Below are positions 6,739-10,345 of a stretch of 64,000 nucleotides of DNA, piece after piece. The first letter of the stretch is position 1; every line of letters begins with the position of its first letter. Both the position numbers and the translations under genes were made by a program. The stretch lies in assembly GCA_951406725.2 (NCBI GenBank), contig OX597817.1, positions 66,526,001-66,590,000 of the forward strand. Reading direction: 5' to 3'. The notes below the pieces were generated by a model. The model did no database searches and had not been told where the DNA came from. It saw nothing but the letters and a program-made list of their open reading frames with translations. Source of the stretch: Octopus vulgaris. Taxonomy: Eukaryota.

Positions 6739-7080
6739 TATATATAATATATATATATATATATATATATATATATATATACATATATACATATATATAT
6801 ATACATATATACATATATACATATATATATATACATATATATATATACATATATACATATATATATATATATATATATATATATATATATGATATATACT
6901 ACAAAATTAGAGAATGGAGAAACATACTTAAATCAATAAAACATCAACTATCCGATGATACCCAATCAATACTTTAATACACCATTACATATGAGTAAAG
7001 GCATTATACAAAATGAGATATACAGTAATAGTAAAAAGATAAAGAGATATAAGTAAAAAATTTCAAATATAATATGCAAT

Positions 7081-7207
7081 TAAATCAAAACTGACAGCTG
7101 TTTCGGCAGTGAGGGAGTCATACCTCATTTAACCTATAAGCCATAAAGGCAGGTATAAATGAGGCATTAACAAGGATGCCCCACGGCCTCTTCAGAGAAT
7201 TAAATTA
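7081..7207 (-). ncRNA. Type I hammerhead ribozyme motif with expanded stem II
   Basis: Minus strand reads CTGAAGA-GGC(~84 nt)GCC-GAAAC-AGCT-GTC; identical to the 9443-9569 copy. Confidence 0.7.
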
Positions 7208-9442
7208 AATTTGTTATAATTGTGAAAAATATTATATAACCATATACATATAAATATAAAAATATAAAAATGTAAAATATAAAAACTTATACATCATAAT
7301 GCTACACTTATATAATATAATACTCATTGGTACAATAAAGGAAGGTAAACAGAACAAAATAAAACAAAATATATATCAGTGTATATATTAATATTAATAA
7401 GTACCGATATCATACATATTTGGCTAATAGTTTTTTTTAAAAGAAACTAACACATAGGGAGACTGCCGAAACAGCTGTCAGTTTTGATTTAATTGCATAT
7501 TATATTTGAAATTTTTACTTATATCTCTTTATCTTTTTACTATTACTGTATATCTCATTTTGTATAATGCCTTTACTCATATGTAATGGTGTATTAAAGT
7601 ATTGATTGGGTATCATCGGATAGTTGATGTTTTATTGATTTAAGTATGTTTCTCCATTCTCTAATTTTGTAGTATTAATTTACGGTAATATTATTACCTT
7701 TACCCATATAATACAATAGATGAACTGATTGTTTGACAATTTTTAACATCTATGTATTAATCTTGTTGGGTACCTATCTGGCAGTATATTGGATATATAT
7801 TATCCCATGGTGGGTTGAATTTTCAACCCCTATCTCATTTTATATATATATATATATATATATATATATATATATATATATATATATATACATATATATA
7901 TACATATATATATATACATATATATATATATATATATATATATATATATATACATATATATATATATATATATACATATATATATACATATACATATATA
8001 CATATATATATATACATATACATATATACATATATATATACATATATATATACATATATATATATACATATATATATACATATATATATACATATATATA
8101 TACATATATATATATACATATATATATACATATATATATACATATATACATATATATATATACATATATACATATATATATATATACATATATATATATA
8201 TATATATATATATATATATATATATATATATATATATATATATATATATACATATATATATATATATATATATATACATATATATATATATATATACATA
8301 TATATATATATATATATATATATATATATATATATATATATATATATATATATATATATATATATATATATATATATATATATATATATATATATATATA
8401 TATATATATATATATATGTATATATATATATATATATATATATATATATATATATATATATATATATATATATATATATATATATATATATATATATATA
8501 TATATATATATATATATATATATATATATATATATATATATATATATATATATATATATATATATATATATATATATATGTATATATGTATATGTATATA
8601 TATGTATATATGTATATATATATATATATATATATATATATATATATATATATACATATATATATATATATATATATGTATATATATATATGTATATATA
8701 TGTATATACATATATATGTATATATATATATATGTATATATATATATATATATATATATATATATATATATATATATATATATATATATATATATATATA
8801 TATTATAAAATGAGATAGGGGTTGAAAATTCAACCCACCATGGGATAATATATATCCAATATACTGCCAGATAGGTACCCTAACAAGATTAATACATAGA
8901 TGTTAAAAATTGTCAAACAATCAGTTCATCTATTGTATTATATGGGTAAAGGTAATAATATTACCGTAAATTAATACTACAAAATTAGAGAATGGAGAAA
9001 CATACTTAAATCAATAAAACATCAACTATCCGATGATACCCAATCAATACTTTAATACACCATTACATATGAGTAAAGGCATTATACAAAATGAGATATA
9101 CAGTAATAGTAAAAAGATAAAGAGATATAAGTAAAAAATTTCAAATATAATATGCAATTAAATCAAAACTGACAGCTGTTTCGGCAGTCTCCCTATGTGT
9201 TAGTTTCTTTTAAAAAAAACTATTAGCCAAATATGTATGATATCGGTACTTATTAATATTAATATATACACTGATATATATTTTGTTTTATTTTGTTCTG
9301 TTTACCTTCCTTTATTGTACCAATGAGTATTATATTATATAAGTGTAGCATTATGATGTATAAGTTTTTATATTTTACATTTTTATATTTTTATATTTAT
9401 ATGTATATGGTTATATAATATTTTTCACAATTATAACAAATT

Positions 9443-9569
9443 TAATTTAATTCTCTGAAGAGGCCGTGGGGCATCCTTGTTAATGCCTCATTTATACCTG
9501 CCTTTATGGCTTATAGGTTAAATGAGGTATGACTCCCTCACTGCCGAAACAGCTGTCAGTTTTGATTTA
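9443..9569 (+). ncRNA. Type I hammerhead ribozyme motif with expanded stem II
   Basis: Core CUGAAGA 9455-9461; stem II closed by GGC/GCC (9462..9545); GAAA 9546-9549; minimal stem III C-AGCU-G with a palindromic loop; GUC cleavage triplet at 9555-9557; stem I imperfect. Confidence 0.72.
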
Positions 9570-10345
9570 ATTGCATATTATATTTGAAATTTTTATATAT
9601 ATACATATATATATATACATATATATATATATATATCATCATCATCGTTTAACGTCCGCTTTCCGCGCTAGCACGATATATATATATATATACATATATA
9701 TATATATATATATATATATATATATATATATATATATATATACATATATATATATATATATATACATATATATATATATATATATATATATATATATATA
9801 TATATATATATATATATACATATATATATATATATATATACATATATATATACATATATATATATACATATATATATATACATATATATATACATATATA
9901 TATATATACATATATACATATATATGTATATATACATATATATACATATATATATATATACATATATATACATATATACATATATATATACACATATATA
10001 TACACATATACATATATATACATATATACATATATATACATATATACATATATATACATATATACATATATACATATACATATATATACACATATACATA
10101 TATATACATATATACATATATATACATATATACATATATATATACATATATATATATAATATATATATATATATATATATATATATATATATATATATAT
10201 ATATATATATATATATATATATATATATATATATATATATATATATATATATATATATATATATATATATATATATATATATATATATATATATATATAT
10301 ATATACATATTTATATTTTTATATAAATATTTATATATATACACA

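What the first reader, a model, noticed from the sequence alone, without database searches (positions are those of the whole stretch)
6896..9595. Nested inverted-repeat architecture of a non-coding, ribozyme-carrying mobile element in (TA)n
Seen: ~790-bp arms (7055-7842 vs 8804-9595, one visible indel) flank 960 bp of microsatellite. Each unit is itself a foldback: a full hammerhead-containing segment is joined head-to-head to a copy truncated exactly at ACTGCCGAAACAGCTGTC (7462 and 9188), with CTCCCT microhomology at the junction. No coding capacity. Known: inverted partial pLTRs at the 5' end are a hallmark of Penelope-like insertions. Inference: a non-autonomous PLE-mobilised (retrozyme-like) family that targets (TA)n and yields long dsRNA and self-cleaving RNA; its sequence differs from the pLTR of the Naiad at 53.6-60 kb, so a different autonomous partner is implied. 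Both units share the same junction, so one was copied from the other or the pair is a foldback read artefact.
Basis: partly seen in the sequence, partly recalled or inferred. Interest (0 to 1): 0.72.

Follow-up and report, generated by a model that had tools for sequence, protein, structure and literature searches.

The report
Duplicated Hydra-type Penelope fold-back insertion
This mirror-image stretch is the cut-short, ribozyme-bearing end of an ordinary protein-coding jumping gene (a Hydra-type Penelope element) inserted back-to-back in a TA repeat, plus a second local copy that likely came from a copying slip or an assembly error, so it is not a new non-coding element.

Summary
The inverted repeats and the hammerhead motif are real. 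The reading as a non-autonomous retrozyme is not supported. The unit is the 3' end (pseudo-LTR) of a young, autonomous 5.58-kb Penelope-like element: 19 of 20 copies picked by the reverse transcriptase run into it, and one natural copy has an uninterrupted ORF of about 947 aa with Hydra-clade motifs. The family has two fixed TA-joined ends 167 nt apart (454 and 436 exact hits). All 53 head-to-head insertions examined have one of each, and the left unit (6896-7842) follows this rule. The right unit (8804-9594) shares a junction and a deletion found nowhere else in the genome, so it is a local copy. Reads could not tell an in vivo template switch from an assembly artefact. One family-level result is of modest interest: 5' truncations peak just after the predicted ribozyme cut (19 vs 3.3 expected) and at one upstream site (17 vs 1.7), which hints at the 5' ends of the template RNA. 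The scan had already noted the one-long-one-short rule on other DNA (e1-10321537). The element at 53.6-60 kb is Hydra-like, not a Naiad.

The parts
5218..6737 (+). Flank, not part of the element: 3' part of a LINE (RVT_1) ending in short GTAAAAGA repeats
   Evidence: Pfam RVT_1 E 1.3e-26; sequence
6738..6895 (.). (TA)n target, left side
6896..7461 (-). Short-ended arm of the original insertion: element positions -742 to -167 (0 = long end), with a complete hammerhead
   Evidence: short end matches the family's 454 TA-joined short ends
7093..7195 (-). Type I hammerhead motif (core CUGAAGA from 7195, GAAA from 7104, predicted cut after 7093)
7462..7842 (+). Long-ended arm of the original insertion: positions -386 to 0, starting 18 nt upstream of the predicted cut
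   Evidence: long end matches the family's 436 TA-joined long ends
7676..7842 (+). 167-nt 'tail' between the two fixed ends; in tandem copies it runs on into the 5' UTR of the next monomer
7812..7829 (+). Small perfect hairpin just before the long end; function untested
   Evidence: fold z -2.67, 3 of 200 shuffles as good
7842..8803 (.). (TA)n spacer. Interruptions are C up to 8297 and mostly G from 8418, bracketing the centre at 8322, but the halves are not exact mirrors
8804..9188 (-). Local inverted copy of the long arm
9189..9594 (+). Local inverted copy of the short arm, cut at position -332 (not a family end)
9455..9557 (+). Type I hammerhead motif (core 9455-9461, long branched helix II, GAAA 9546-9549, palindromic helix III, predicted cut after 9557)
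9637..9675 (-). Flank: 39-nt piece that looks like the (GAT)n-tailed 3' end of another repeat, inside TA
   Evidence: 23-nt match at 41297-41319

Best explanation
The unit at 6896-7842 is a 5'-truncated, head-to-head insertion of the 3' end of an autonomous 5.58-kb Hydra-type Penelope-like retrotransposon, likely made when both nicked strands of a (TA)n target primed reverse transcription at two fixed sites 167 nt apart on the element's RNA, and 8804-9594 is a local inverted copy of it. Shown: family membership, coding parent, two fixed ends, one-of-each rule, local uniqueness of the shared junction. Inferred steps: (1) the GIY-YIG domain nicks both strands in (TA)n. (2) One 3' end starts cDNA at the short site and the other at the long site. 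(3) The two cDNAs stopped at -742 and -386 and were joined with 1 nt of overlap. (4) The second unit arose afterwards, by strand switching in the self-complementary TA tract during DNA synthesis (my odds 0.50), as an assembly or read fold-back error (0.42), or by local re-retrotransposition (0.08). The hammerhead comes along as part of the pLTR. The long arm here crosses the predicted cut site, so its template was uncut RNA.
For: Young multicopy family: 1270 candidates, 40 scored, full-length matches 98-100%; 1025 exact hammerhead-core hits, control 0. 19 of 20 RT-selected loci run through a shared 3' UTR into this unit, and the 20th is cut by the locus edge. ORFs of 894-960 aa run to the C-terminus in 4 of 20; 3 of 20 hold both the YRDD and YIG motifs in one frame. 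Tandem monomer 5557-5610 nt. Hydra motifs DKT, RWR, CxCx5C, C-terminal VY..YIG, CxxC and CxH are present and GxKF/Y is absent, matching PMC8557442 section 11. Ends: 454 short and 436 long TA-joined hits, 52 read-throughs into the 5' UTR, controls 0. Pairing: 48 of 53 head-to-head pairs long+short; the other 5 ran off the locus edge and resolved long+short; none same+same. Either arm can be the longer (short arm longer in 25 of 48). PMC11167929 (main text read) shows in vitro that a PLE protein cuts and extends both strands of AT-rich DNA and starts RT at two internal sites that bound the tail. Junction and G deletion each occur only twice in the genome, both here.
Against: No phylogeny was built, so the clade call rests on motifs. 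At 5.58 kb the element is about twice the usual Hydra length (<3 kb), and its tail is 167 nt against 30-40 nt in the papers read. Pfam found no domain in the two ORF pieces scanned or in the RT piece of the second element. Dual priming is inferred from genomic ends and from work on a Poseidon element, not tested for this family. PMC3846280 (passages) explains palindromic junctions by self-priming on an antisense template, and 22 of 53 junctions here are near-symmetric, which fits that too. No read or contig confirmed the junctions.
Confidence: 0.88

Rival explanations
1. The right-hand unit (8804-9594, with part of the spacer) is an assembly or read fold-back artefact; the genome holds only the ordinary left insertion.
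For: The arms differ only by 1-nt indels (0 substitutions, 2 internal indels), whereas 7 young copies differ from one reference copy by 24 substitutions and 6 gap columns. Spacer interruptions flip from C to G across the geometric centre; only 1 of 18 other long arrays shows a flip. No second case of a locally repeated junction among 53 pairs.
Against: The spacer halves are not mirror images (27 C interruptions against 11 G plus 2 C, different spacing). The mirror stops at 9594 and sequence resumes with a distinct flank, which needs two switches. The sequencing method is unknown to me.
Confidence: 0.42
2. Non-autonomous retrozyme-like family mobilised by a separate PLE.
For: The unit here is non-coding and carries a type I hammerhead; most family copies are short.
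Against: The sequence is continuous with a coding element in 19 of 20 RT loci. 5' ends are scattered. There are no short tandem arrays: same-strand hammerheads are only 5.56-5.61 kb apart.
Confidence: 0.04
3. The right unit is a new retrotransposition of a transcript of the left fold-back unit, started at the long site and inserted into the neighbouring TA tract.
For: It begins exactly at the long end, with the other common junction register. RT errors could give the indels.
Against: It would have to land within 1 kb of its donor, and it lacks the partner short end that all 53 other two-armed insertions have. The junction is found nowhere else.
Confidence: 0.07
4. The inverted structure arises from one primed cDNA that folds back or self-primes, not from two target-primed cDNAs.
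For: 22 of 53 junctions have the two 5' ends within 25 nt; self-priming was proposed in PMC3846280.
Against: 31 of 53 junctions are asymmetric, including this one (-742 vs -386). The short arm reaches further 5' in 25 of 48 pairs and the long arm does in others. A fold-back copy of a short-ended cDNA cannot add the 167-nt tail.
Confidence: 0.15

Closest known systems
Hydra clade of C-terminal EN+ Penelope-like elements (PMC8557442; e.g. Hydra-1_Obim, Penelope-2_SK, Penelope-13_HM in its supplement)
   Same: RT then CxCx5C linker then C-terminal GIY-YIG; DKT; RW[KR]; CxxC and CxH; hammerhead in the pLTR with ACAG..CUGU helix III as in several listed Hydra HHRs; (TA)n target; 5' inverted truncated copy (noted for Penelope-13_HM).
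   Different: 5.58 kb against mostly 2-3 kb; about 300-aa Asn-rich insert (21% N); 3' UTR about 2.6 kb; long branched helix II; 167-nt tail. Its hammerhead strings are not in the supplement (0 hits), and the Hydra-1_Obim HHR and protein differ visibly.
PAc (Poseidon of Anolis carolinensis; PMC11167929)
   Same: Two fixed RT start sites bounding a tail; both strands of AT-rich DNA cut and extended; HHR in the pLTR.
   Different: Different clade; PAc starts lie inside the ORF and are adjacent, here they lie 143 and 310 nt upstream of the ATG and 167 nt apart.
Adineta vaga Penelope families (PMC3846280)
   Same: Inverted pLTR, tail on one arm, palindromic junctions, Asn-rich insert in the ORF.
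   Different: 31-bp tail, target-site duplications; other clade.
Animal non-LTR retrozymes (bioRxiv 10.64898/2026.07.22.740005, first fifth read)
   Same: Type I hammerhead related to PLE pLTRs; the local piece is non-coding.
   Different: Defined there as tandem repeats with at least two consecutive HHR units; not seen here, and this sequence belongs to a coding element.

Membership tests
EN+ Penelope-like element | Single ORF with RT and GIY-YIG endonuclease | tested here: met
   L065 ORF about 947 aa from ATG, with GSPDS, YRDD and VY..YIG
EN+ Penelope-like element | Partial tandems forming pLTRs, inverted 5'-truncated copy, tail at one end | tested here: met
Hydra clade | C-terminal GIY-YIG | tested here: met
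   motif at aa 829-845, after YRDD at 376
Hydra clade | DKG changed to DKT; GxKF/Y not conserved | tested here: met
   DKT at 138; no GxK[FY]
Hydra clade | N-terminal RWK motif | tested here: inconclusive
   RWR at 37, a conservative variant
Hydra clade | CxCx5C linker; CxxC and CxH around the conserved E and N | tested here: met
   aa 809, 907, 935
Hydra clade | CCHH motif absent | not tested
   no alignment to canonical PLE endonucleases was made
Hydra clade | Hammerhead in pLTR; (TA)n insertion | tested here: met
Hydra clade | Generally short (<3 kb); a tendency, not a diagnostic | tested here: not met
   monomer 5557-5610 nt
Hydra clade | RT phylogeny groups with Hydra | not tested
   reference sequences were seen only in cut form in the supplement
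Non-LTR retrozyme | Short tandem units, at least two consecutive HHRs | tested here: not met
   only 5 same-strand HHR pairs in 194 loci, all 5.56-5.61 kb apart
Non-LTR retrozyme | Family without coding capacity | tested here: not met
   19 of 20 RT loci end in this unit
Non-LTR retrozyme | Circular or monomeric RNA | not testable with these tools
   only contigs were available, none on record as RNA
Type I hammerhead ribozyme | CUGANGA and GAAA core, NUH site, three helices | tested here: met
   core intact in 158 of 161 spanning stretches (overlapping loci not merged); constrained fold 5.2 kcal/mol above the minimum
Type I hammerhead ribozyme | Self-cleavage | not testable with these tools
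   palindromic helix III predicts dimer dependence (PMC4209133 passages)
Naiad (for the element at 53.6-60 kb) | N-terminal endonuclease, DKA, no canonical HHR | tested here: not met
   RT then CxCx5C then YIG; DKT; three HHR motifs

The most novel reading that the evidence does not exclude
The genomic copies of this family record the whole PLE insertion reaction. Both target strands are primed, always one at each of two RNA sites 167 nt apart. cDNAs stop preferentially at two RNA 5' ends, a promoter start about 917 nt upstream of the long end and the hammerhead cut. That would be in vivo evidence that ribozyme-cut RNA serves as a PLE template.
Probability: 0.3. Interest if true: 0.55.

Novelty: new member of a known kind. 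Interest (0 to 1): 0.27.

Why it matters
The locus itself is an ordinary PLE insertion with a one-off duplication of uncertain reality. The family is useful because the PLE insertion mechanism and the role of the pLTR hammerhead are still open (PMC11167929 found the HHR dispensable in vitro and saw no reads at the cut site). A young family with about 450 insertions, two well-separated ends and two truncation peaks gives exact, testable predictions for RT starts, the transcript start and ribozyme use in a Hydra-type element.

Tried and rejected
Rfam at gathering threshold: 0 hits in the window; the long helix II may explain this, untested. Pfam: no RT or GIY-YIG hit for the four PLE pieces scanned, only a sub-threshold VtrA_C match. 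Protein search: 75 relatives, mostly unnamed, best 43% identity; no clade label. Sequencing runs: no RNA holder listed; all holders are contigs. Laying 4 runs on 8810-9600 and 4 runs on 9150-9680 showed family sequence but no listed piece bridging the junction, the private deletion or the right end; repeats were skipped and only 32 records were shown each time, so this is no evidence either way. Exact mirror test of the spacer: negative. CTCCCT microhomology and truncation at the ribozyme: rejected. A first pairing count gave 4 same+same pairs; its key merged the two arms of palindromic junctions, so it was redone by genome coordinate. The one same+same pair left there was a locus-edge cut, resolved. 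13 internal fragments were dropped before the counts. The sequence look-ups in earlier findings gave nothing relevant. Literature searches gave no paper describing this family, the one-of-each rule or truncation at the HHR site; the library lacks most subscription papers, Repbase was not searchable, and I did not read the PMC11167929 supplement, which bears on tail length.

Full report
Observation. The architecture is present. Arms 7056-7842 and 8804-9594 are 99.6% inverted-identical around 962 bp of (TA)n. They differ by no substitution, two internal 1-nt indels and one indel at the TA border. Each unit is a head-to-head join. A type I hammerhead motif sits at 9455-9557 (+) and 7195-7093 (-): CUGAAGA core, a long branched helix II, GAAA, a palindromic helix III and a GUC site. 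The region folds better than all 200 shuffles. Rfam gave no hit.

What the unit is. A search of the window's genome with 9189-9590 gave 1270 candidates; 40 were scored, and the full-length matches were 98-100% identical. Many copies continue upstream into shared sequence that leads to an RT and endonuclease ORF. I then picked copies by the RT alone (343 candidates, 40 scored) and fetched 20 of them. Nineteen run from the RT through the endonuclease and a long 3' UTR into this unit; the twentieth is cut by the locus edge (L063 and L064 look like one duplicated segment). Four of the 20 have ORFs of 894-960 aa to the C-terminus, and L065 has about 947 aa from its ATG. The window pieces are 96% identical to L065 and 98-99.7% to L051. 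In tandem copies the unit's far end runs into a 143-nt 5' UTR and the ATG (52 exact read-throughs). The monomer is 5557-5610 nt. The unit is therefore the pLTR end of an autonomous Penelope-like element.

Clade. The protein has DKT, RWR, no GxKF/Y, a CxCx5C linker, a C-terminal GIY-YIG and CxxC and CxH motifs. These are the Hydra features listed in PMC8557442 (section 11 read; supplement part 2 and passages). It is longer than listed Hydra families and has an Asn-rich insert. No tree was built. The host is an animal with a 2.8-Gb genome; earlier scan notes call it octopus, which I did not check.

Two fixed ends. Copies join (TA)n at a short end (-167) or a long end (0): 454 and 436 exact hits, controls 0. 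I examined 120 loci chosen only by one such end: the first 30 hits of each pattern, plus 60 further short-end hits on contigs 1-3. They held 53 head-to-head pairs. Forty-eight were long+short; five ran off the locus edge and resolved long+short; none had two like ends. Several seemingly single-armed copies carry a tiny inverted piece of the long end at their 5' junction. The left unit fits: short end at 6896, long end at 7842, 5' ends at -742 and -386, 1-nt overlap. PMC11167929 (main text) showed that a Poseidon protein cuts and extends both strands of AT-rich DNA and starts RT at two internal sites that bound the tail. The likely mechanism is one cDNA from each target strand, one from each site, joined at their truncated ends. 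This step is inferred. Self-priming (PMC3846280 passages) may contribute, since 22 of 53 junctions are near-symmetric, but it cannot add a tail to a short-ended cDNA.

Truncation peaks. Among 176 arms (152 with a visible 5' end), 19 end in the 25 nt after the predicted ribozyme cut against 3.3 expected, and 2 end in the 25 nt before it against 3.0. One of the 19 looks like an internal deletion on inspection. Seventeen end at -926 to -902 against 1.7 expected; five of these end at -917 and four at -922, the latter being fold-backs of the same point. The windows were chosen after I saw the histogram, so the p values (about 1e-9 and 1e-12) are flattered. The upstream site has two CCAAT words 53 and 60 nt before it and resembles an initiator (consensus recalled, not from a call), so it may be the transcript start. 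Most ends in the first peak lie 5-24 nt after the cut, not at it. RT stalling at the ribozyme's helix I explains them as well as cleavage does. Neither arm in the window ends at a peak.

The second unit. The junction sequence and a G deletion in helix II each occur exactly twice in the genome, both here. The right unit is thus a local copy, and its outer end (-332) is not a family end. No other junction was repeated locally among the 53 pairs; one junction recurs at two distant places, at the -922 peak. For an artefact: indel-only differences, against 24 substitutions and 6 gap columns among 7 young copies, and a C-to-G flip of spacer interruptions across the centre, seen in 1 of 18 other long arrays. 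Against: the spacer halves are not mirrors and two switches are needed. Public data were contigs only and bridged neither junction. I put in vivo strand switching in the TA tract at 0.50, artefact at 0.42 and local re-retrotransposition at 0.08.

Retrozyme test. In all 194 loci, same-strand hammerheads were seen in 5 pairs, each a full monomer apart. The retrozyme definition in bioRxiv 10.64898/2026.07.22.740005 (first fifth read) is not met. Any long double-stranded RNA from this locus would be a by-product of the geometry; no expression data bear on it.

The neighbouring element. The element at 53.6-60 kb shares no DNA with this family and is 43% identical in RT. It has RT, CxCx5C and a C-terminal YIG, DKT and three hammerheads, so it is Hydra-like, not a Naiad. 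It shows the same layout, with a tail of about 73 nt on the inverted arm.

Verdict. New member of a known kind. Inverted copies, a one-sided tail, the hammerhead and the (TA)n target are all described for PLEs. The scan had noted Hydra fold-backs and the one-long-one-short rule on other DNA. My searches found no paper reporting these. Interest 0.27.

Noticed in passing
window 53619-60015: A second Hydra-like PLE (not a Naiad): inverted arm 53619-53924, pLTR to 54345, ORF 54421-56534 in two frames, about 3 kb of simple repeats in the 3' region, 3' pLTR 59661-60015; three hammerheads; tail about 73 nt.
   Followed up: partly
family positions -926 to -902 (e.g. L144, L153, L170): Strong 5' truncation peak, 17 vs 1.7 expected, with two CCAAT words 53 and 60 nt upstream; candidate transcript start.
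   Followed up: partly
family positions -364 to -340 (e.g. L186, L189, L136): 5' truncation peak just after the predicted hammerhead cut, 19 vs 3.3 expected.
   Followed up: partly
G000:C1:151663198 and G000:C1:68166520: The same perfectly palindromic junction (-922/-922) at two distant loci: a recurrent fold-back at the peak, or a re-mobilised inverted unit.
   Followed up: no
L065 ORF, aa 501-800: Asn-rich insert (21% N) between RT and endonuclease, like those described in rotifer Penelopes.
   Followed up: no
L065:990-1505: An older copy (80-85% identical) lies tail-to-tail with the young element, which suggests repeated insertion into the same TA tract.
   Followed up: no
window 4286-5008 and 5218-6660: The LINE left of the finding has an internal tandem duplication of its RT region (two near-identical ORF pieces).
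   Followed up: no
window 9637-9675: 39-nt piece like the (GAT)n-tailed end of another repeat, isolated in TA; a related word lies at 41297-41319.
   Followed up: no
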